Origin: Candidatus Doudnabacteria bacterium
GTDB taxonomy: Bacteria > Patescibacteriota > Doudnabacteria > UBA920 > 2-01-FULL-46-14
Direction of reading: 5' to 3'
DNA length: 64,000 bases
NCBI GenBank assembly: GCA_041497195.1
Contig: JBGQGB010000002.1
Location: forward strand, 108,140 to 172,139
Below are positions 52,365 to 61,787 of the stretch, piece after piece (position 1 is the stretch's first letter; each line of letters starts with the position of its first letter). Below the pieces are notes generated by a model. The model had not been told where the DNA came from and ran no database searches. It worked only from the letters and a program-made list of their open reading frames with translations. A program made the position numbers and the translations under genes.

Positions 52365-53510
52365 ATGACCTTAATAGAGCGGTACTACAAAACCCGTATC
52401 CGACCAGGGGTCTTCGCTGCGAGCGAACCCGACGCGGAATTAGCACACGAGTGGGGCATGAACAAACTCGTGAGAATTCAGAATAGTCGCTTTCTGACTG
52501 CGCTCGCCAGGCTTTTCTGCGTTTACTGCCACCCCATGCTCGAGACTGAAGTGATGGGTCTGCAGTTCCCAAATCCCTTTGGCCTCGCCGCGGGTTTTGA
52601 CAAGTATTGCGAGGTCTATTCACGCGCTATTCCCGCGTGCGGCTGGGGTTTTTGTGAAATAGGCGGAATCACCGCGTTCCAGCAGTCAGGCAATCTTCTC
52701 CGCCCACGCATGAAGCGGTCACACGCGCATCAAGCCTTGTGGAATTTCATGGGATTCAACAACCCGGGCGCTCCCATAGCCGCAGCTACAATGTCTAGGC
52801 ATCCTAAAGCGGTAGTGCCAGTGGGACTCAATGTGGGCAAGAGTAAAGCGACCCCGTTGGATGAGGCGGCCAGAGACTACTGCCACACTGTCACCGTGCT
52901 TTATCAACATGTCGATTTCGTCACAGTGAATCCCAGTTCACCTAATACGCCTGGACTGCGTGACCTCCAAAAAAAGACAGAGCTTTCAGACTTGCTTCGG
53001 GCAGTCAAAAAGACCATGGAAGCAATCGCGGATTGCAATGGCTTGCCCAGACTGCCGCTTGGCGTGAAACTGTCTCCTGATCTTTCGGATGAGGCTTTGG
53101 CTGATTGTATCGAGGTGTGCAAAGAAGTTGGCGCTGCTTTTATAACGTTAACCAATACCACGGTCGGGCGAGCCGGGCTCAATGGTTGGGATATTCCAGC
53201 GGATCGAGGCGGCGTCAGTGGGAAACCTTTGCGTGAAGCCTCGGAACGGATCCTGGCGCAAGTTTACCTCGCCCTTAATGGCCACCGGCCGAAGATAAAT
53301 CTCATCAGTGTCGGCGGTATTTCAAACGCCCAAGAGCTCTACCGGCGGATCAGGCTCGGGGCCGACCTCTGCCAGGCTTACACTGCGTGGCCTTTCGAGG
53401 GACCTGATTTTGCCAGGCGGTGTCTCAAAGAGCTGGTCAGAATGCTCAAGTCCGACGGCTTCCGGCATGTTTCCGAAGCAGTCGGATCTGAGACCTGTAT
53501 GTGTTCATGA
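52365..53510 (+). CDS. pyrD: Dihydroorotate dehydrogenase (class 2-like, with N-terminal extension)
   Basis: GLQFPNPFGLAAGFDK…VTVNPSSPNTPGLR…GGISNAQELYR blocks. Confidence 0.85.
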   Translation: MTLIERYYKTRIRPGVFAASEPDAELAHEWGMNKLVRIQNSRFLTALARLFCVYCHPMLETEVMGLQFPNPFGLAAGFDKYCEVYSRAIPACGWGFCEIGGITAFQQSGNLLRPRMKRSHAHQALWNFMGFNNPGAPIAAATMSRHPKAVVPVGLNVGKSKATPLDEAARDYCHTVTVLYQHVDFVTVNPSSPNTPGLRDLQKKTELSDLLRAVKKTMEAIADCNGLPRLPLGVKLSPDLSDEALADCIEVCKEVGAAFITLTNTTVGRAGLNGWDIPADRGGVSGKPLREASERILAQVYLALNGHRPKINLISVGGISNAQELYRRIRLGADLCQAYTAWPFEGPDFARRCLKELVRMLKSDGFRHVSEAVGSETCMCS

Positions 53511-56811: not shown

Positions 56812-57528
56812 ATGTCCGCTCCGAGACCGATAGCTATATTCGATATAGACGGCACGATTTTTCGCTCCAGCCTCAACATTCAGCTTTTTGAGCGGCTGGT
56901 GCGCGAAGGGATATTTCAGTCTGCGGTTTTGCGTCGAGTGCGGAAATCCGAGGAAAAATGGCTCAACCGCCAGGGCCACTATGACGACTACGTCCACGAA
57001 CTGGTGCGCGCTTATCAAAAAGCGATTGTGGGCAAAGACCGCAGGGATATTGTGCGAGTGAGCAAACGGGTCGTGGCTGAGCAAAAATATCGCACTTATC
57101 GCTACACCCGACATCTTCTCGAAAAAGTGCGACGCAAGTATTTTACGATTTGCATCTCTAGCTCGCCTCTGGAAGTCGTGCAGGAGTACAATAAGTTTCT
57201 CAAATTCGACAAAATTTACGGCTGGGAACTAGGCGTAAATGAACGTGGTCGCTACACTGGCGTGACCCTGCATTTGCCCGCACTTTATAAAAAGGAATTG
57301 ATTGTCCGCTATGTCCAGGGCCACCACTTGAGTCTCAAAGGTTCGCTCGGAGTGGGGGATACCGAAACGGACATTGGGTTTCTCGAGCTGGTCGAGGAGC
57401 CGATCGCGTTCAATCCCAATGTGATTTTAGCAAGGTATGCTCGCCAGCATGACTGGAGAATTGTGATCGAGCGAAAAGATTTGATTGTCGAGCTGGATCC
57501 AAGAAAAGTGAAGTTTCTCAAAGTGTAA
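56812..57528 (+). CDS. HAD-superfamily hydrolase, subfamily IB-like
   Basis: Motif I IAIFDIDGTI and motif IV GVGDTETDIGFL. Confidence 0.7.
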   Translation: MSAPRPIAIFDIDGTIFRSSLNIQLFERLVREGIFQSAVLRRVRKSEEKWLNRQGHYDDYVHELVRAYQKAIVGKDRRDIVRVSKRVVAEQKYRTYRYTRHLLEKVRRKYFTICISSSPLEVVQEYNKFLKFDKIYGWELGVNERGRYTGVTLHLPALYKKELIVRYVQGHHLSLKGSLGVGDTETDIGFLELVEEPIAFNPNVILARYARQHDWRIVIERKDLIVELDPRKVKFLKV

Positions 57529-57531
57529 CGA

Positions 57532-57608
57532 GCGCCCGTAGCTCAGTGGATTAGAGCGTCTCCCTCCGGAGGAGAAGGCCAGAGGTCCGAATCCTCTCGG
57601 GCGCACCA
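57532..57608 (+). tRNA. tRNA-Arg (CCG), CCA encoded
   Basis: Acceptor GCGCCCG/CGGGCGC, anticodon loop CTCCGGA. Confidence 0.8.
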
Positions 57609-57613
57609 AAATA

Positions 57614-58021
57614 ATGAGGCGAGTAATGGTGTTTGGCACATTTGATATTTTGCATCCTGGTCATATTTATTTTCTCAAGGAAGCGAAAAAATATGGCGAT
57701 TTTTTGATCGTGTCCATTGCGCGTGACGCCAATGTGGAACGCGTCAAAGGTCACGCAGCGCGCCACACTGAAACGGATCGCAAGAAGCTTCTCGAATCGC
57801 TTCGCTTCGTCAACAAGGTCGTTTTAGGCGCCCCAAGAGATTATATTGAGCATATCTTAAAAATGCGACCGCGGGTGATCGCTTTAGGGTATGATCAAAA
57901 AGCTTATACGCACAAACTATCGGAGAAATTGGCGGCTCGTGGGATGAGCGTTAGCGTCGTGCGTATGAAGCCGTACAAGCCGAACATTTACAAATCTAAA
58001 AAGTTAATCATTAAAAAATAA
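57614..58021 (+). CDS. ribL: Archaeal-type FAD synthetase (RibL-like nucleotidyltransferase)
   Basis: VMVFGTFDILHPGHIYFLKEAKKYGDFLIVSIARD… matches the RibL HxGH motif and layout, distinct from the TagD STDEFN pattern. Adjacent to riboflavin kinase. Confidence 0.6.
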   Translation: MRRVMVFGTFDILHPGHIYFLKEAKKYGDFLIVSIARDANVERVKGHAARHTETDRKKLLESLRFVNKVVLGAPRDYIEHILKMRPRVIALGYDQKAYTHKLSEKLAARGMSVSVVRMKPYKPNIYKSKKLIIKK

Positions 58022-58024
58022 ATT

Positions 58025-58306
58025 ATGGACCCCAGAGAACGTGCGGATGGTTCGCAGGAATTTCACGAGCAAGAAAAGGAGGTTTTATTGCTTCCGTGCT
58101 CTGGCGACAGCCAAAGGGGAAGGCCACGCAGTCATTTATATGAAGTTTGGGTGGGCACCGACTATCCAAATCAAGGGGTGTCGAAAGGTTATATGAGGAA
58201 AGAAGAAGCGTTGCGTCTCTATCCAGACGCTGTAGAGACTAACAGCGATTCTTTATGTGCCGAGTGTGCTGCCGATCTGAGGCGTCGCGCCGGACTTGCT
58301 CCTTAA
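58025..58306 (+). CDS. Hypothetical protein (weak)
   Basis: ORF only; no motif. Confidence 0.2.
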   Translation: MDPRERADGSQEFHEQEKEVLLLPCSGDSQRGRPRSHLYEVWVGTDYPNQGVSKGYMRKEEALRLYPDAVETNSDSLCAECAADLRRRAGLAP

Positions 58307-58322
58307 AGCGTAAGGGCCTTTT

Positions 58323-58649
58323 ATGGCGAAACAATACAAAATAGTAGTTTTTGTGCCTACAGCTCACGCTGACGCAATTCGCGAGGTTTTGGGCAAAGCC
58401 GGAGCCGGGAGCTCGGGCAATTACGAGTTCGCATCCTTTTCTGCGACAGGCCTGGGGAGGTTTCGCCCGCTCAAGGGCGCCAAACCAGTCATTGGAGAAG
58501 TCGGCAAGCTCGAAGCAGTGGAAGAAGAACGGATCGAGACAGTAGTTCGCGTAGAAGACCTCGCTGACGTAGTGTACAAAGTTCGGCAAGCGCATCCTTA
58601 TGAAGAGCCGGTTATAGATGTATATGAACTCACAAATAGCGATGATTAG
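58323..58649 (+). CDS. Small ferredoxin-like/PII-like protein (NIF3-insert-like, COG3323-type)
   Basis: KIVVFVPTAHADAIREVLGKAGAG…HPYEEPVIDVYEL pattern recalled from stand-alone PII/Nif3-insert-like proteins. Low-confidence family call. Confidence 0.35.
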   Translation: MAKQYKIVVFVPTAHADAIREVLGKAGAGSSGNYEFASFSATGLGRFRPLKGAKPVIGEVGKLEAVEEERIETVVRVEDLADVVYKVRQAHPYEEPVIDVYELTNSDD

Positions 58650-59010
58650 CGAGAAATTTTCTGGAACAGCTCAAAAGCATTTAGGACGAGGGACAAAACT
58701 TGGTTTTCCGACTGCTAATATGGACGTTCCTTCTCAAGCCCAGGAGGGGACCTTTTTAGGTTGGACTACTCTGGGAGGCAAAAAATGGCCTTCCCTAATT
58801 TTTATCGGGGCTCCTGAAACCTTTGGGGAAACGGACAAGCGAGCGGAAACTTATATTCTGGACTTCCGTGGCAGTTTGTACGGCAAGAGTATAGAGATAG
58901 AATTGATAGAGAAGTTGCGAGATAATAAAAAATTTGGTTCAGAGGCCGAGCTGGTGGAACAGATGAAAGCTGACGAACAGAAAGCTCGCATTTTTTTTGC
59001 AAGAAAGTAA
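58618..59010 (+). CDS. ribK: Monofunctional riboflavin kinase (flavokinase)
   Basis: GRGTKLGFPTANM…IFIGAPETFG…ETYILDF…LYGKSIEIEL match the RibF C-terminal flavokinase domain. Start may be ATG 58643. Confidence 0.65.
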   Translation: MYMNSQIAMISEKFSGTAQKHLGRGTKLGFPTANMDVPSQAQEGTFLGWTTLGGKKWPSLIFIGAPETFGETDKRAETYILDFRGSLYGKSIEIELIEKLRDNKKFGSEAELVEQMKADEQKARIFFARK

Positions 59011-59027
59011 ATTGGTTGCTATATTTA

Positions 59028-59175
59028 GCTCAGCTTTCAGGGCGGGGCGCAAGTCCCCACCGGTGGTAAACCTCAAGCCAAGTCGAGAGGTAGTCCACGA
59101 GCCCCGAGCGTAGTCGAGGGGCACGATGCCGTTTGATTCGGCAACCGACGGTCATAGTCCGGATGAAAGAGAGCT
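59028..59175 (+). promoter_or_regulatory. FMN riboswitch (RFN element) aptamer
   Basis: CAGGGCGGGGCGCAAGTCCCCACCGGTGGTAAA … GCAACCGACGGTCATAGTCCGGATGAAAGAGAG matches RFN conserved blocks (GGG-loop-CCC-ACCGG[CU]GGUA…; CCGACGGU.AUAGUCCGGAUGAAAGA). P1 is formed by CTTTC / GAAAG. Confidence 0.8.
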
Positions 59176-59185
59176 TGATTTTGAG

Positions 59186-59216
59186 TGTGCCCTGATAAGC
59201 AGGGTTTTTATTTTTA
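59186..59216 (+). terminator. Riboswitch expression-platform terminator (FMN-dependent attenuation)
   Basis: CCCTG-ATAAG-CAGGG hairpin immediately followed by TTTTTATTTTT, 12 nt before the ATG of the transporter. Confidence 0.6.
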
Positions 59217-59227
59217 AGCCAAAATTT

Positions 59228-60163
59228 ATGAATCGGTACAAAACAGGTCCGTGGCTGGTAGTCGTAGCTGCCTTGATGTGGGCGCTTGACGCGCCTTTTC
59301 GTAAATACCTGACTCTTGATTTGTCTTCAACCACGATCGTTCTGATGGAGCACCTGACCATCGCGGTTTTGGTATTTGTGTTTTTGTTCAGATATTTGTC
59401 AGAATTTCGCAAACTCGGCTGGCGCGAGTGGTTGGCCGTCGTCTTTATCGGTTTTGGTGGGTCAGCTCTGGCTACAGTTCTTTTCACGCAAAGCTTCCAT
59501 TATGTCAATCCGTCCGTGTCCATACTGCTACAAAAAGTCCAGCCAATTATTACGATACTTCTGGCAGCAGCTCTACTGAAAGAAAAGTTGACCAAAAATT
59601 TTTGGAGCTGGGCGATTGTGGGTATTTTTGGAGCTTATCTTATAACTTTCCCGGAACTTCGTATTTCGGGTCTCGAGTTTGGCGGAGGCACTTTGGGAGT
59701 CGTCTTCGCGCTTCTAGCTGCCTTTCTGTGGGGTGGCTCGACAGTATTTGGCCGGTTTGTGCTGCGCAAATTAAGCTTTCAGGCAATGACCGCAGCGCGG
59801 TTCCTGAGCGCGCTGGTTTTTCTTTTTGTTTTGGAAATTTATTACGGCCGTTTGGGCGAGTTGCGGACAGCCACTCCCAAAGACTGGTTGTATGTCCTCA
59901 TCATCGCCATACTGGCGGGTTTTGTTTCCTTGTTCATTTACTATCGCGGCTTGCAGTTTACCAAAGCTAGTATTGCGACCATTGGCGAGCTGGCCTTTCC
60001 TTTTGCAGCCGTCATTGTGAATTGGATCTTTTTGGGTGCGACTTTGACCTTAGCACAAATTTTGGGCGGGTTAATTCTGCTGTTTTCGATGGTGAAGCTG
60101 TCGTTGGAGAACGCAAAAGAGGGTGATATACTGGAACAGCAGAATGTTCACCAAAACGTTTAA
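59228..60163 (+). CDS. DMT/EamA-family transporter, ImpX/RibN-like putative riboflavin importer
   Basis: Ten-TM EamA-type duplication. Directly controlled by the FMN riboswitch. Confidence 0.65.
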   Translation: MNRYKTGPWLVVVAALMWALDAPFRKYLTLDLSSTTIVLMEHLTIAVLVFVFLFRYLSEFRKLGWREWLAVVFIGFGGSALATVLFTQSFHYVNPSVSILLQKVQPIITILLAAALLKEKLTKNFWSWAIVGIFGAYLITFPELRISGLEFGGGTLGVVFALLAAFLWGGSTVFGRFVLRKLSFQAMTAARFLSALVFLFVLEIYYGRLGELRTATPKDWLYVLIIAILAGFVSLFIYYRGLQFTKASIATIGELAFPFAAVIVNWIFLGATLTLAQILGGLILLFSMVKLSLENAKEGDILEQQNVHQNV

Positions 60164-60188: not shown

Positions 60189-60536
60189 ATGAAATGGAAG
60201 TTATATTTTTGGGTTTTGTTTGGCACAAGTGCGGTGTTGTTTTTTTCACCAATCCAATTAGATGAGCATACCGGACTCGGCCTCGACAAGCTGGTGCATG
60301 CCGGACTTTTTGCCCTTTTACTCTACCTGGCCTGGCGAGGGTTTTCGAAACAACGTACAGCAGCTTTTATTCTGCTTCTGGCTTACGGAGTTGCGGTGGA
60401 ACTGATCCAGGGCCGGTATATCCCTCATCGGCATTTTGATTTGTTCGATATTTTAGCAGATTGGATTGGCCTCGGTATTCTGGGAGTTTACCTAATGCGT
60501 AAGCAGAAAAAGTTGGAGCATGAGGACCCTCACTAA
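60189..60536 (+). CDS. VanZ-like family membrane protein
   Basis: Three to four TM helices, with conserved …AYGVAVELIQGRYIPHRHFDLFDILADWIGLGILG typical of VanZ-like proteins. Confidence 0.55.
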   Translation: MKWKLYFWVLFGTSAVLFFSPIQLDEHTGLGLDKLVHAGLFALLLYLAWRGFSKQRTAAFILLLAYGVAVELIQGRYIPHRHFDLFDILADWIGLGILGVYLMRKQKKLEHEDPH

Positions 60537-61317
60537 ACAAATTTTGCGAAAGCTCAAGTTGCCAAGGCCAGACTCACACAAAGGCGAAAACGGGCAGCTT
60601 TTGATTATTGCAGGCAGCAGGCACTATCACGGTTCTCTCCTCTTTGCGGTCAGAGCAGCCAGCAGGATCGTAGACAAGATCCATGTTTTGACTAGCGTCG
60701 AAAACAAAGAAGTGGTTCAAAAGCTTCGCGTCAAGACAGCTGCCTTTATCCCAAGTTATGATTTGAAACACGCTCTCTCGCTGGTTGATTGCGTGCTTAT
60801 TGGACCCGGTATGGGGACCGAAAGGCGGACGAAAAAACTTGTTGAATCGGTCCTGAGAAGCGGCAAGCGGGTTGTCTTGGATGCAGACGCGCTCAATGTT
60901 CTAGATGCGAAGCTTCTGAAACTACTCGGCCCTCAGCATATAGTCACCCCTCACCAAGGCGAGTTTCGAAGAGCATTTGGACTAGCGCCAACATGGCAGA
61001 ATGTGAAAAAAGTAGCAGACACGTATCACTGTACTGTCGTACTGAAAGGAAAAATTGACGTGATCAGCAGTCCTCAATTTGGCATGGCTTTCAACAAAAC
61101 CGGCAATCAGGGGATGACCAAAGGCGGGACCGGAGACGTGCTCGCTGGTCTTATTGCTTCCTTTTACTGTAAAAATGGAGCTTATATTTCCGCTGCAGCC
61201 GGGATTTTTGTGAATGGGCTGGCGGGAGACGTCCTGTTTTCCAAAGGCGGGCCTTTCTATAATGCCGAAGATCTTGTGGAACAAATTCCTAAAACTTTGT
61301 GGAAAGCCATAAAATAA
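60520..61317 (+). CDS. nnrD: ADP-dependent (S)-NAD(P)H-hydrate dehydratase (YjeF C-terminal / Nnr2)
   Basis: HKGENGQLLIIAGS…GPGMG…DADAL…TPHQGEF…GNQGMTKGGTGDVLAG motifs. Confidence 0.75.
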   Translation: MRTLTKQILRKLKLPRPDSHKGENGQLLIIAGSRHYHGSLLFAVRAASRIVDKIHVLTSVENKEVVQKLRVKTAAFIPSYDLKHALSLVDCVLIGPGMGTERRTKKLVESVLRSGKRVVLDADALNVLDAKLLKLLGPQHIVTPHQGEFRRAFGLAPTWQNVKKVADTYHCTVVLKGKIDVISSPQFGMAFNKTGNQGMTKGGTGDVLAGLIASFYCKNGAYISAAAGIFVNGLAGDVLFSKGGPFYNAEDLVEQIPKTLWKAIK

Positions 61318-61334
61318 ACTTTCTGCGTTAAACC

Positions 61335-61787
61335 ATGAAAGTTGTTATTGATACCAACATTTTGATAAGCGGGGCTGATGATGAATCGTCTTATGCGCGT
61401 AGGATTATTGAGGAAGTGATTGCCGGGCGCATCCAGGCCTACGCCACTCATCAGACGGAAGGAGAGAATCGCCAGATGCTGCGGAAGTTGGTAAAAGACA
61501 GAGACTACCGCGCTCGTCTCGAGCAATATTTCGGCAAGATAAATATAGTAAAGGCCTATCAGCCCCTGCAGGTTGTTTCTGATGCAGAAGATAATAAGTT
61601 GTTTGAATCAGCAGTCGCAGCCGGGGCAGACTATTTGATTTCTCATGACCAGGAAGTTTTGGCTATCTCAGAGTACAAAAAAACCAAAGTTGTGCAGCCG
61701 GAAGAATTTTGGTTCAGGTACCAGAATGAGAGAGGTGACGACTCAGCTTGGCAGGATTGGAGCAAGATGATTATGAGCAACAACTAG
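61335..61787 (+). CDS. PIN-domain protein (putative toxin-type nuclease, PIN_3-like)
   Basis: MKVVIDTNILISG (Asp in strand 1) and a distal …GADYLISHDQ acidic motif. Confidence 0.6.
   Translation: MKVVIDTNILISGADDESSYARRIIEEVIAGRIQAYATHQTEGENRQMLRKLVKDRDYRARLEQYFGKINIVKAYQPLQVVSDAEDNKLFESAVAAGADYLISHDQEVLAISEYKKTKVVQPEEFWFRYQNERGDDSAWQDWSKMIMSNN

What the first reader, a model, noticed from the sequence alone, without database searches (positions are those of the whole stretch)
57614..60163. Flavin salvage module: FMN riboswitch-controlled DMT transporter next to a stand-alone archaeal-type RibL FAD synthetase and a monofunctional riboflavin kinase
Most bacteria make FMN and FAD with one bifunctional RibF. 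Here the two activities are on separate genes: a RibL-like nucleotidyltransferase (FDILHPGH) at 57614-58021 and a roughly 120-aa flavokinase at 58618-59010, with a small PII/Nif3-insert-like protein between them. They sit directly upstream of an FMN-riboswitch-gated EamA/DMT (ImpX-like) transporter. No ribA/B/D/E/H gene is in the window. This is consistent with a riboflavin-auxotrophic, salvage-dependent organism using an archaeal-style RibL plus RibK route. As a contiguous unit (RibL, PII-like, RibK, riboswitch, importer) this is the most system-like element in the window. RibL in archaea is also unusual in accepting CTP and being oxygen-sensitive.
Basis: partly seen in the sequence, partly recalled or inferred. 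Interest (0 to 1): 0.7.

Follow-up and report, generated by a model that had tools for sequence, protein, structure and literature searches.

The report
Riboswitch-controlled flavin salvage gene cluster
A tiny-genome (CPR/Patescibacteria) bacterium carries side by side a vitamin B2 importer that an FMN-sensing RNA switches off, and two separate enzymes, one of archaeal type, that turn the vitamin into FMN and FAD; every part belongs to a known family, so this is a tidy example, not a new kind of system.

Summary

- **RibL-like protein:** it is 40% identical over its full length to characterised M. jannaschii RibL. It scores 123 bits on a RibL profile, against 62-65 for TagD and HldE. In other CPR genomes it sits next to flavokinase, and in some next to riboflavin and lumazine synthase.
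- **Transporter:** it is 32% identical (E 3e-40) to Fusobacterium ImpX. A CPR-transporter profile scores ImpX at 162 bits and E. coli EamA exporters at 16 or less.
- **Riboswitch:** it keeps all FMN-contact nucleotides and folds as an OFF switch.

Corrections: the kinase is the bacterial/eukaryotic PF01687 type, not archaeal CTP-dependent RibK. The RibL-like protein has no cysteines, so M. jannaschii RibL's air sensitivity probably does not apply. Auxotrophy is untested.

Databases already name these proteins "FAD synthase", so this is a new member of a known kind. It contradicts statements that Parcubacteria lack such genes and that RibL is absent from Bacteria.

The parts
57532..57608 (+). 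tRNA-Arg(CCG), 5 nt upstream of the RibL-like gene. It is probably the head of the same transcription unit (context, inferred).
   Evidence: ARAGORN; Rfam tRNA at 67.9 bits. A tRNA also lies directly upstream of ribK in L015, L034, L071 and L074.
57614..58021 (+). RibL-type (archaeal-type) FMN adenylyltransferase / FAD synthase, 135 aa, HxGH motif HPGH at residues 14-17, no cysteine.
   Evidence: PF01467 at 54 bits. Best PDB match is 3glv, full length, E 3e-25. 40% identity and E 2e-32 to M. jannaschii RibL. RibL profile: 123 bits against 62 for TagD and 65 for HldE. AF2 pLDDT 87; Foldseek top hit 3glv with TM 0.80/0.88. Lies next to flavokinase in 10 other loci and near ribE/ribH in 4.
58025..58306 (+). 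93-aa ORF of unknown function from a rare small-protein family with invariant P-C-x-G, H and C-x-x-C (possible metal site). Found in no other locus examined that carries the module.
58323..58649 (+). Stand-alone Nif3 (YqfO) insert-domain / PII-like protein, 108 aa. Its stop overlaps the likely ribK start (ATGATTAG). Role in the module unknown.
   Evidence: 2gx8 residues 161-263, E 2e-26. No Pfam or NCBIfam hit. 1613 homologues of 105-110 aa, all 'hypothetical'. Sits between ribL and ribK also in L011 and L047, but beside a Zip transporter or an MFS gene elsewhere.
58642..59010 (+). Monofunctional ATP-type riboflavin kinase (flavokinase), 122 aa. Alternative starts are 58618 and 58624.
   Evidence: PF01687 at 102 bits. 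Matches only the C-terminal halves of the RibF models and the RFK modules of C. ammoniagenes and T. maritima RibF. E. coli RibF residues 202-307 align to 58690-58998; there is no hit to the RibF N-terminal domain.
58997..59025 (+). Sigma-70-like promoter candidate (TTGCAA, 17 nt, TG-TATATT) ending 3 nt before the aptamer.
   Evidence: Consensus scan. Weak on its own: 4 sites found against 3.0 expected. Only its position argues for it.
59029..59178 (+). FMN riboswitch aptamer of the canonical FMN-binding type.
   Evidence: RF00050 at 94.9 bits against a gathering score of 66.2. All ligand-contact nucleotides are invariant against the Fusobacterium impX aptamer and four CPR orthologues, and P2 shows compensatory changes (A3).
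59189..59215 (+). Expression platform: terminator hairpin GCCCTG-ATAAG-CAGGGT followed by TTTTTATTTTT. Its 5' arm (59189-59199) can instead pair with aptamer bases 59036-59044 to form an anti-terminator.
   Evidence: Terminator scan. ViennaRNA folds: anti-terminator -69.9 kcal/mol against P1 plus terminator -67.4 kcal/mol. The GCCCUGA(A) box is conserved in L011, L047 and L097.
59228..60163 (+). ImpX-type DMT (two EamA domains) transporter, 311 aa; predicted riboflavin importer.
   Evidence: PF00892 at 142 bits with two stretches. 32% identity over 286 aa and E 3e-40 to Fusobacterium ImpX. CPR-transporter profile: ImpX 162 bits against E. coli YedA 16, EamA 13, YddG 2, RhtA -4. Orthologues follow ribK in L011, L047, L095-L097, L015 and L055.

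Best explanation
This is a flavin cofactor salvage unit of a CPR (Doudnabacteria-like) bacterium, and I propose it works as follows.

1. The ImpX-type DMT transporter imports riboflavin.
2. The stand-alone ATP-type flavokinase phosphorylates riboflavin to FMN.
3. The RibL-type nucleotidyltransferase adenylylates FMN to FAD. It replaces the N-terminal FMNAT domain of bacterial RibF.
4. Only the importer is feedback-controlled. Its leader carries a canonical FMN aptamer. With FMN bound, the P1 helix forms, the downstream hairpin and U-run terminate transcription, and the importer is not made.
5. Without FMN, aptamer bases 59036-59044 pair with the terminator's 5' arm. This anti-terminator lets the polymerase read through into the transporter gene.
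6. The two enzyme genes lie upstream in a compact tRNA-Arg, ribL, orf93, PII-like, ribK string with no riboswitch in front of them, so they are presumably expressed constitutively.

Shown here: family assignments, aptamer integrity, the alternative folds, and conservation of gene order. Inferred: substrates, direction of transport, constitutive expression, and any role for orf93 or the PII-like protein. I treat those two as passengers of unknown function.
For: - **RibL-like protein.** It is 40% identical over its full length to characterised M. jannaschii RibL (sequence identity verified). It is 41% identical with TM 0.80/0.88 to 3glv. A RibL profile separates it cleanly from TagD and HldE: 123 against 62 and 65 bits. 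It falls far below the NCBIfam cutoffs for HldE domain II (74 against 181) and TagD (60 against 165).
- **Gene context.** Flavokinase lies within about 1 kb of the RibL-like gene in 7 of 80 diverse CPR loci and in 3 further Doudna-type loci. In Kaiserbacteria locus L034 the order is tRNA, ribK, riboflavin synthase, lumazine synthase, ribL (Pfam). Similar arrangements occur in L033, L056 and L012.
- **Kinase.** PF01687 at 102 bits, RFK module only.
- **Riboswitch.** 94.9 bits. FMN-contact nucleotides are invariant. Anti-terminator and terminator folds are nearly equal in energy. An orthologous riboswitch lies between ribK and the transporter in L011, L047, L095 and L097 (86-98 bits).
- **Transporter.** Clear ImpX-subfamily membership. 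ImpX riboflavin uptake was shown by complementation of an E. coli riboflavin auxotroph (PMC4418817). In L015 and L055 the transporter sits inside a ribK, transporter, ribL operon without any riboswitch. That is independent context evidence.
- **Demand for flavin.** An FMN-dependent dihydroorotate dehydrogenase (PF01180) is encoded at 52365-53510.
Against: - No biochemistry exists for any CPR member of these families.
- RibL-like genes stand without a nearby flavokinase in 73 of the 80 sampled loci, so context support comes from a minority.
- The promoter call is no better than chance in number.
- The U-run ends only 12 nt before the start codon, so a translational component cannot be excluded.
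- In the survey of PMC4418817, ImpX was found only in bacteria that also make riboflavin. An importer therefore does not imply auxotrophy.
- The conserved PII-like gene inside the module in this clade is unexplained.
Confidence: 0.85

Rival explanations
1. The module is not the organism's sole flavin source. The genome also encodes de novo riboflavin synthesis and/or a bifunctional RibF elsewhere, and the importer merely supplements it, as in ImpX-bearing Firmicutes and Fusobacteria.
For: ImpX was found only in riboflavin-proficient bacteria in PMC4418817. Some CPR lineages carry ribE and ribH beside ribK/ribL (L034, L033, L056, L012). Gracilibacteria are reported to have full riboflavin/FMN/FAD pathways (PMC9166423). 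Only about 68 kb of this genome could be read.
Against: No rib biosynthesis gene and no RibF N-terminal domain were found in the 64-kb window or in the extra 4 kb held. None of the Doudna-type loci (L011, L047, L095-L097) shows ribE or ribH nearby. Parcubacteria were reported to lack the pathway (PMC4508563).
Confidence: 0.2
2. The RibL-like protein is a different small nucleotidyltransferase, for example a cytidylyltransferase for cell-envelope precursors or an archaeal-type PPAT. Its position beside ribK would then be conserved synteny without functional meaning.
For: The best NCBIfam profile hits are HldE domain II (74 bits) and TagD (60 bits). Most RibL-like loci (73 of 80) have no flavin gene nearby. 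The fold is shared with many nucleotidyltransferases.
Against: Those NCBIfam scores are less than half the family cutoffs. TagD aligns only to the N-terminal 70 residues, whereas RibL and 3glv align end to end. The RibL profile gives 123 bits against 62-65 for the alternatives. Linkage to ribK recurs in different gene orders in distant lineages, and to ribE/ribH as well. That pattern is not expected from inherited synteny alone.
Confidence: 0.06
3. The DMT protein exports flavins or toxic flavin breakdown products, or carries a non-flavin substrate, instead of importing riboflavin.
For: Most characterised EamA proteins are exporters. Variant FMN-like riboswitches do control efflux pumps (PMC6298564). 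Direction of transport cannot be read from sequence.
Against: The aptamer has the canonical FMN-contact guanosines, not the G-to-A variant pattern. The predicted logic is OFF with ligand, which suits an importer and is the opposite of the ON logic of the efflux-linked variants. The protein is an ImpX-subfamily member, far from the E. coli exporters.
Confidence: 0.07

Closest known systems
RibL, archaeal FAD synthase of Methanocaldococcus jannaschii (MJ1179, WP_010870692; Mashhadi et al. 2010, cited in PMC5397151 and PMC11423594)
   Same: Same small nucleotidyltransferase family. 40% identity over the whole length, with shared GTFDILHPGH and LG(Y/P)DQ motifs and a degenerate C-terminal ISST-type motif. 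It is a stand-alone FMNAT not fused to a kinase.
   Different: The host is a bacterium. It lacks the two cysteines (C126, C143) linked to air sensitivity, and has no cysteine at all. It is partnered with a bacterial-type ATP flavokinase instead of the archaeal CTP-dependent RibK. Nucleotide preference is unknown.
EhFADS, RibL-type FAD synthase of Entamoeba histolytica (PMC11423594)
   Same: A RibL-type enzyme outside Archaea, cysteine-free, working with a non-archaeal riboflavin kinase. This is the precedent for a hybrid pathway.
   Different: It is a eukaryotic lateral transfer of 168 aa and was shown to be ATP-specific. The CPR proteins are a large bacterial group: at least 599 hits in species-representative genomes, including DPANN archaea. 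None has been characterised.
ImpX riboflavin importer with FMN riboswitch, Fusobacterium nucleatum FN1498 (PMC4418817)
   Same: Same DMT subfamily (32% identity, E 3e-40, end-to-end alignment). Same arrangement: an FMN aptamer plus terminator directly upstream of the transporter gene, which the ImpX survey describes as a putative monocistronic unit.
   Different: Here the gene directly follows the ribK and ribL genes. In some CPR it lies inside that operon without a riboswitch (L015, L055). ImpX was previously reported only from Proteobacteria, Firmicutes and Fusobacteria, and only in riboflavin producers.
RFK module of bifunctional RibF/FADS (C. ammoniagenes 5a88, T. maritima 1mrz) and monofunctional RFKs (human 1nb0)
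   Same: Flavokinase fold PF01687, with the GRG..LGFPTAN segment and the E..ILDF..LYG segment aligned.
   Different: There is no FMNAT (FAD_syn) domain attached. At 122-130 aa, it is among the shortest forms.
Insert (PII-like) domain of Nif3/YqfO proteins (B. cereus 2gx8, S. aureus SA1388 2nyd)
   Same: The 108-aa protein aligns over its whole length with the insert domain (E 2e-26 and 2e-16).
   Different: It is a stand-alone protein without the Nif3 dimetal core. No function is known for either form.

Membership tests
RibL (archaeal-type FAD synthase, EC 2.7.7.2) | Small stand-alone nucleotidyltransferase (Rossmann-like fold) with an N-terminal (H/T)xGH motif | tested here: met
   PF01467 at 54 bits; HPGH at residues 14-17. 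AF2 model pLDDT 87; Foldseek top hits are all nucleotidyltransferases.
RibL (archaeal-type FAD synthase, EC 2.7.7.2) | Closer in sequence to characterised RibL than to sister families (TagD, HldE domain II, ECT/CCT, PPAT) | tested here: met
   BLASTP to M. jannaschii RibL: 40% identity, 99 bits, full length. RibL profile: 123 bits against TagD 62 and HldE 65. phmmer: 89-100 bits to RibLs and 3glv against 53 and 41. In an NJ tree the RibL clade is separated from TagD and HldE by a long branch (no support values).
RibL (archaeal-type FAD synthase, EC 2.7.7.2) | Two cysteines (C126, C143 of MJ RibL) tied to air sensitivity | tested here: not met
   No cysteine in the 135-aa protein. C126 aligns with N, and C143 lies beyond the C-terminus. 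EhFADS also lacks them and is active, so this feature is not required for the activity.
RibL (archaeal-type FAD synthase, EC 2.7.7.2) | FMN adenylyltransferase activity | not testable with these tools
   Supported only by gene context: next to flavokinase in 10 other loci and near ribE/ribH in 4.
Flavokinase (PF01687; RFK module of RibF, eukaryotic RFK) | Pfam score above the gathering cutoff across the whole domain, including the PTAN-containing loop | tested here: met
   102 bits against 19.6; profile positions 6-123 of 124. GRGTKLGFPTAN is visible in the sequence.
Flavokinase (PF01687; RFK module of RibF, eukaryotic RFK) | Monofunctional: no FAD_syn (PF06574) domain in the same protein | tested here: met
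   122-130 aa. NCBIfam RibF models match only their C-terminal 110-120 positions. E. coli RibF residues 1-190 find nothing in the window.
Archaeal CTP-dependent riboflavin kinase RibK (PF01982) | Match to the archaeal RibK family | tested here: not met
   The Pfam scan at E<=0.01 returns only PF01687 for the kinase, and no window protein tested hits PF01982.
FMN riboswitch (RF00050) | Covariance-model score above the Rfam gathering score over the full model | tested here: met
   94.9 bits against 66.2; model positions 1-138 of 138.
FMN riboswitch (RF00050) | Canonical ligand-contact nucleotides. Positions 48, 85 and 99 contact the flavin (PMC6298564). The guanosines that contact the ribityl-phosphate are G10, G11, G32, G62 and G84 by my own knowledge of Serganov et al. 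2009. | tested here: met
   All are invariant in the alignment with the Fusobacterium impX aptamer and four CPR orthologues (A3 columns G12-14, G34-35, A50, G64, G86, A87, A101, which equal crystal numbering plus 2). It is therefore not the G-to-A 'variant' class.
FMN riboswitch (RF00050) | Expression platform that couples ligand binding to gene expression | tested here: met
   Terminator at 59189-59205 plus a U-run. A competing anti-terminator pairs 59036-59044 with 59189-59199, at -69.9 against -67.4 kcal/mol. The box is conserved in 3 of 4 orthologous leaders. This is prediction only; ligand response was not tested.
ImpX riboflavin transporter (DMT superfamily) | Ten-TMS DMT protein with two EamA domains | tested here: met
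   PF00892, two stretches, 142 bits. The TMS count was not computed.
ImpX riboflavin transporter (DMT superfamily) | Specific similarity to experimentally verified F. nucleatum-type ImpX, above other EamA families | tested here: met
   BLASTP: 32% identity over 286 aa, 130 bits, E 3e-40. Reverse search from ImpX: 138 bits to the window protein against 23 or less to E. coli EamA paralogues. CPR profile: ImpX 162 bits against 16 or less. The reference was fetched with the published primer, is preceded by RF00050, and belongs to a Fusobacterium protein cluster. RibN, the other riboswitch-linked DMT importer, could not be compared because no sequence was available.
ImpX riboflavin transporter (DMT superfamily) | FMN riboswitch upstream | tested here: met
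   Window and L011, L047, L095, L097. Absent in L096, L015 and L055.
ImpX riboflavin transporter (DMT superfamily) | Riboflavin uptake activity | not testable with these tools
   Requires complementation of a riboflavin auxotroph, as in PMC4418817.
Nif3/YqfO insert (PII-like) domain | Sequence homology to the insert domain of solved Nif3-family proteins | tested here: met
   2gx8 residues 161-263, E 2e-26; 2nyd residues 135-235, E 2e-16. The Nif3 core itself is absent (108 aa; no PF01784 hit).

The most novel reading that the evidence does not exclude
In the Doudnabacteria-like clade, the stand-alone Nif3-insert (PII-like) protein would be a genuine third component of FMN/FAD synthesis. Its gene is wedged between ribL and ribK, and its stop overlaps the likely ribK start. 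It could be, for example, a flavin- or nucleotide-binding regulator or chaperone of the kinase or adenylyltransferase. That would give the first functional handle on the enigmatic Nif3 insert domain. More broadly, CPR bacteria as a group would have replaced the RibF FMNAT domain with a RibL exchanged with DPANN archaea.
Probability: 0.15. Interest if true: 0.55.

Novelty: new member of a known kind. Interest (0 to 1): 0.35.

Why it matters
CPR/Patescibacteria have tiny genomes, and an early survey concluded that Parcubacteria lack riboflavin synthesis, ribK/ribL/ribF, riboflavin transporters and FMN riboswitches. Yet they encode FAD-dependent MurB and TrxB (PMC4508563). This locus and its relatives show a complete and regulated route from external riboflavin to FAD in at least one CPR clade. 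They also show that the archaeal-type FAD synthase is widespread in CPR genomes: at least 599 hits in species-representative genomes, shared with DPANN archaea. That conflicts with the published statement that RibL orthologues are absent from Bacteria (PMC5397151). The practical value lies in better vitamin-dependency predictions for uncultured symbionts, and in a cysteine-free RibL and an ImpX orthologue that could be tested in E. coli. It does not reveal a new mechanism.

Tried and rejected
- **Structure library.** The afdb50 library, wanted for a named ranking of RibL against TagD, was not installed. I used PDB Foldseek plus profile scoring instead.
- **Transporter against PDB.** A sequence search with the transporter found nothing at E<=1.
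- **Context of the PII-like protein.** One look-up (the Bradyrhizobium homologue P0356) was not on record. Two others showed non-flavin neighbourhoods: Zip transporter, and MFS/CAP. I therefore dropped the idea that this family is generally flavin-linked.
- **'Variant' riboswitch.** I considered that the RNA might be a non-FMN variant controlling an efflux pump (PMC6298564). I rejected this because all contact nucleotides are canonical and the logic is OFF.
- **Degenerate riboswitch.** I looked for one in L096, L015 and L055 with an nhmmer profile and found none. L096 has a type IV pilin gene inserted at that position.
- **Literature.** No paper in the library holds both 'Candidate Phyla Radiation' and 'FMN riboswitch'. 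Searches combining Patescibacteria or Saccharibacteria with riboflavin, FAD or riboswitch terms found no description of this module.
- **Source genome.** The genome-collection scan did not return the source genome itself, so the organism name rests on the names of its best homologues.

Full report
**What is there.** The stretch 57532-60163 is a string of co-directional, almost abutting features on the + strand:
- tRNA-Arg(CCG), 57532-57608
- a 135-aa cytidylyltransferase-like ORF, 57614-58021
- a 93-aa ORF, 58025-58306
- a 108-aa ORF, 58323-58649
- a flavokinase ORF ending at 59010
- an FMN riboswitch aptamer, 59029-59178
- a two-EamA-domain membrane protein ending at 60163

The mechanical ORF for the transporter begins at 59126, inside the aptamer. 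The first ATG after the leader is 59228 (MNRYKTGPW..., 311 aa), and two of the three public gene calls (L002, L003) use that start, while the JGI call keeps the 345-aa ORF. The flavokinase most likely starts at 58642, where ATG overlaps the stop of the preceding gene (ATGATTAG). Starts at 58618 and 58624 are also possible.

**Where it comes from.** Identical proteins lie on a 240-kb JGI metagenome contig and in NCBI assembly GCA_041492065.1. The nearest relatives of three of the proteins searched are all from Candidate Phyla Radiation MAGs, mostly Candidatus Doudnabacteria and Parcubacteria.

**The RibL-like protein.**
- Pfam sees only the generic PF01467 family. NCBIfam's best hits, HldE domain II (74 bits) and TagD (60 bits), are far below their cutoffs of 181 and 165.
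- The best solved structure is 3glv from Thermoplasma volcanium, aligned end to end (E 3e-25). TagD aligns only over the first 70 residues.
- I recalled the M. jannaschii RibL sequence and confirmed it by exact look-up as WP_010870692 / RIBL_METJA. BLASTP gives 40% identity over all 135 residues, E 2e-32.
- A profile built from the M. jannaschii RibL cluster plus 3glv scores the window protein at 123 bits and all 80 fetched CPR/DPANN relatives at 88-150 bits. Verified B. subtilis TagD scores 62 and E. coli HldE scores 65.
- An NJ tree puts all RibL-like sequences in one clade, on a long branch from TagD and HldE (no support values).
- An AF2 model (pLDDT 87) has 3glv as its top Foldseek hit (TM 0.80/0.88, 41% identity), ahead of TagD and HldC.
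- The protein has no cysteine, whereas M. jannaschii RibL's air sensitivity is attributed to two cysteines. In this it resembles the Entamoeba RibL-type enzyme, which is active and ATP-specific.

**Gene context for the RibL-like protein.** A scan of species-representative genomes found at least 599 relatives, in many CPR lineages and in DPANN archaea, at 42-54% identity among the 80 kept.
- Of those 80 loci, 7 have a flavokinase gene within about 1 kb, in several different orders.
- Three more Doudna-type loci, reached through transporter homologues, have ribL, ribK, then the transporter.
- In Kaiserbacteria locus L034 the order is tRNA, flavokinase, riboflavin synthase (PF00677), lumazine synthase (PF00885), RibL-like. 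ribE and ribH also lie near the RibL-like gene in L033, L056 and L012.

Recurrent linkage in different arrangements is hard to explain unless the protein acts on flavins.

**The kinase.** PF01687 scores 102 bits. The RibF models and solved RibF structures match only through their C-terminal RFK module. This is the bacterial/eukaryotic ATP-type fold, not the archaeal CTP-dependent RibK. The pathway is therefore a hybrid of a bacterial-type kinase and an archaeal-type adenylyltransferase, as already seen in Entamoeba.

**The riboswitch.**
- RF00050 scores 94.9 bits against a gathering score of 66.2 over the full model.
- I aligned it with the Fusobacterium impX aptamer and four CPR orthologues. 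The nucleotides equivalent to crystal positions G10-G12, G32, G33, A48, G62, G84, A85 and A99 are invariant, and P2 shows compensatory changes (GGGG/CCCC, AGAG/CTCT, GCCG/CGGC).
- It is therefore not one of the rare G-to-A variants that reject FMN and switch on efflux pumps.
- Downstream lies GCCCTG-ATAAG-CAGGGT followed by TTTTTATTTTT.
- The unconstrained minimum-energy fold of the leader pairs aptamer bases 59036-59044 (UUUCAGGGC) with 59189-59199, at -69.9 kcal/mol. Forcing the terminator gives an intact P1 plus hairpin at -67.4 kcal/mol.
- These two near-isoenergetic folds are the standard design of a transcriptional OFF switch. The GCCCUGA(A) box recurs in L011, L047 and L097. In L095 the start codon follows P1 directly, which suggests translational control there.
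- A promoter-like TTGCAA, 17 nt, TG-TATATT ends 3 nt before the aptamer. The scan finds no more such sites than chance.

**The transporter.** All 120 best homologues are CPR proteins named only 'DMT family transporter'. To test the ImpX label, I fetched the Fusobacterium impX locus from metagenome contigs using the primer published in PMC4418817. The gene is preceded by RF00050 (118-121 bits) and belongs to a Fusobacterium protein cluster.
- BLASTP gives 32% identity over 286 residues, E 3e-40.
- A profile of the 121 CPR transporters scores ImpX at 162 bits. E. coli YedA, EamA, YddG and RhtA score 16, 13, 2 and -4.
- The reverse search from ImpX gives 138 bits to the window protein and 23 or less to the E. 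coli paralogues.
- ImpX rescues an E. coli riboflavin auxotroph.
- In Paceibacteria-type loci L015 and L055, a 51-52% identical transporter sits between ribK and ribL with no riboswitch. This links the subfamily to flavins independently of the RNA.

**How conserved the unit is.** Eight loci have ribK followed by the transporter. The riboswitch is present in five of them: the window, L011, L047, L095 and L097. It is absent in three: L015, L055, and L096, where a type IV pilin gene is inserted.
- The PII-like gene lies between ribL and ribK in the window, L011 and L047, but not in L095-L097.
- Many close relatives appear to carry RibL-like and PII-like homologues on the same contig, judged by identical longest-contig lengths in the three hit tables.
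- Outside this clade, the PII-like family occurs in unrelated contexts.
- orf93 is found only in this genome's version.

**What is not in the window.** tblastn with E. coli RibA, RibB, RibD and RibF and with CPR RibE and RibH finds only the kinase domain. The Pfam gene tables show ribosomal, cell-wall, ATP synthase and pyrimidine genes. Among them is an FMN-dependent dihydroorotate dehydrogenase at 52365-53510, so the cell needs FMN. Absence of riboflavin synthesis from the rest of the genome could not be checked.

**Known or new.** JGI and NCBI already label these proteins 'FAD synthetase' or 'FAD synthase', so the family assignment is not new. In the searchable literature I found no description of the module in CPR.
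- One 2015 study reported that Parcubacteria lack all of its parts.
- A 2017 paper states that RibL orthologues are absent from Bacteria.
- The 2024 Entamoeba paper shows a bacterial clade in its tree without discussing it.

I therefore rate this a new member of a known kind, of moderate interest. The unexplained PII-like and Cys/His proteins are the only parts that could hold something new.

Noticed in passing
[not shown]
   Followed up: yes
window 58323-58649; L011 8471-8800; L047 3777-4097; L091/L092; L093: The stand-alone Nif3-insert (PII-like) protein is wedged between ribL and ribK in this clade, and in the window its stop overlaps the likely ribK start. The same family (1613 hits, all 'hypothetical', including a Bradyrhizobium protein) sits beside a Zip metal transporter or an MFS gene elsewhere. 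Its function is unknown.
   Followed up: partly
L034 3826-5642; L033 334-2485; L056 1-1020; L012 1-1265: Kaiserbacteria, Nomurabacteria and related CPR loci carry riboflavin synthase and lumazine synthase, the last two steps of riboflavin synthesis. In L034 and L012 these sit beside ribK. The RibL-like gene follows directly in L034 and L056, about 0.8 kb downstream in L033, and about 5.6 kb away in L012. Whether the earlier steps exist in those genomes was not checked.
   Followed up: partly
L088 1-1142 compared with L087 4672-6032: One Fusobacterium metagenome contig has impX behind the same upstream sequence but without the FMN riboswitch. There are about 140 nt between the primer site and the start codon, against about 440 nt in L087. 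This is a natural riboswitch-less allele.
   Followed up: partly
L004-L083, NJ tree: RibL-like proteins of CPR bacteria and DPANN archaea are about as similar to each other (42-54% identity to the window protein) as CPR lineages are among themselves. A DPANN group nests among CPR sequences in an unsupported NJ tree. This hints at exchange between the two ultra-small radiations. Several MAG labels (Gammaproteobacteria, Methanosarcinales, Methylomirabilota) look unreliable.
   Followed up: partly
window 57532-57608; L015 6567-6651; L034 3738-3822; L071 1118-1202; L074 7567-7651: A tRNA gene lies immediately upstream of the first flavin gene in several CPR lineages. Here it is tRNA-Arg(CCG) before ribL; elsewhere 84-85-nt tRNAs lie before ribK. 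This suggests co-transcription with a tRNA.
   Followed up: no
window 56812-57528; L040 from 8418; L067 from 1303: A HAD-IB family hydrolase lies just upstream of the tRNA and ribL here. A 40-41% identical homologue lies directly downstream of the RibL-like gene in two Saccharibacteria loci. It could be a flavin-related phosphatase, or the adjacency could be coincidence.
   Followed up: no
window 60189-61787: Downstream of the transporter, with no obvious terminator between, lie a VanZ-like membrane protein, an NAD(P)HX dehydratase (YjeF C-terminal type, TIGR00196 at 202 bits) and a PIN-domain protein. These neighbours are not conserved in L095-L097, so they are probably not part of the flavin unit.
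   Followed up: partly
L096 2892-3470: In one Doudnabacteria relative, a type IV pilin-like gene (N-terminal MKKNGFTLIELLVV...) occupies the place of the riboswitch between ribK and the transporter.
   Followed up: partly
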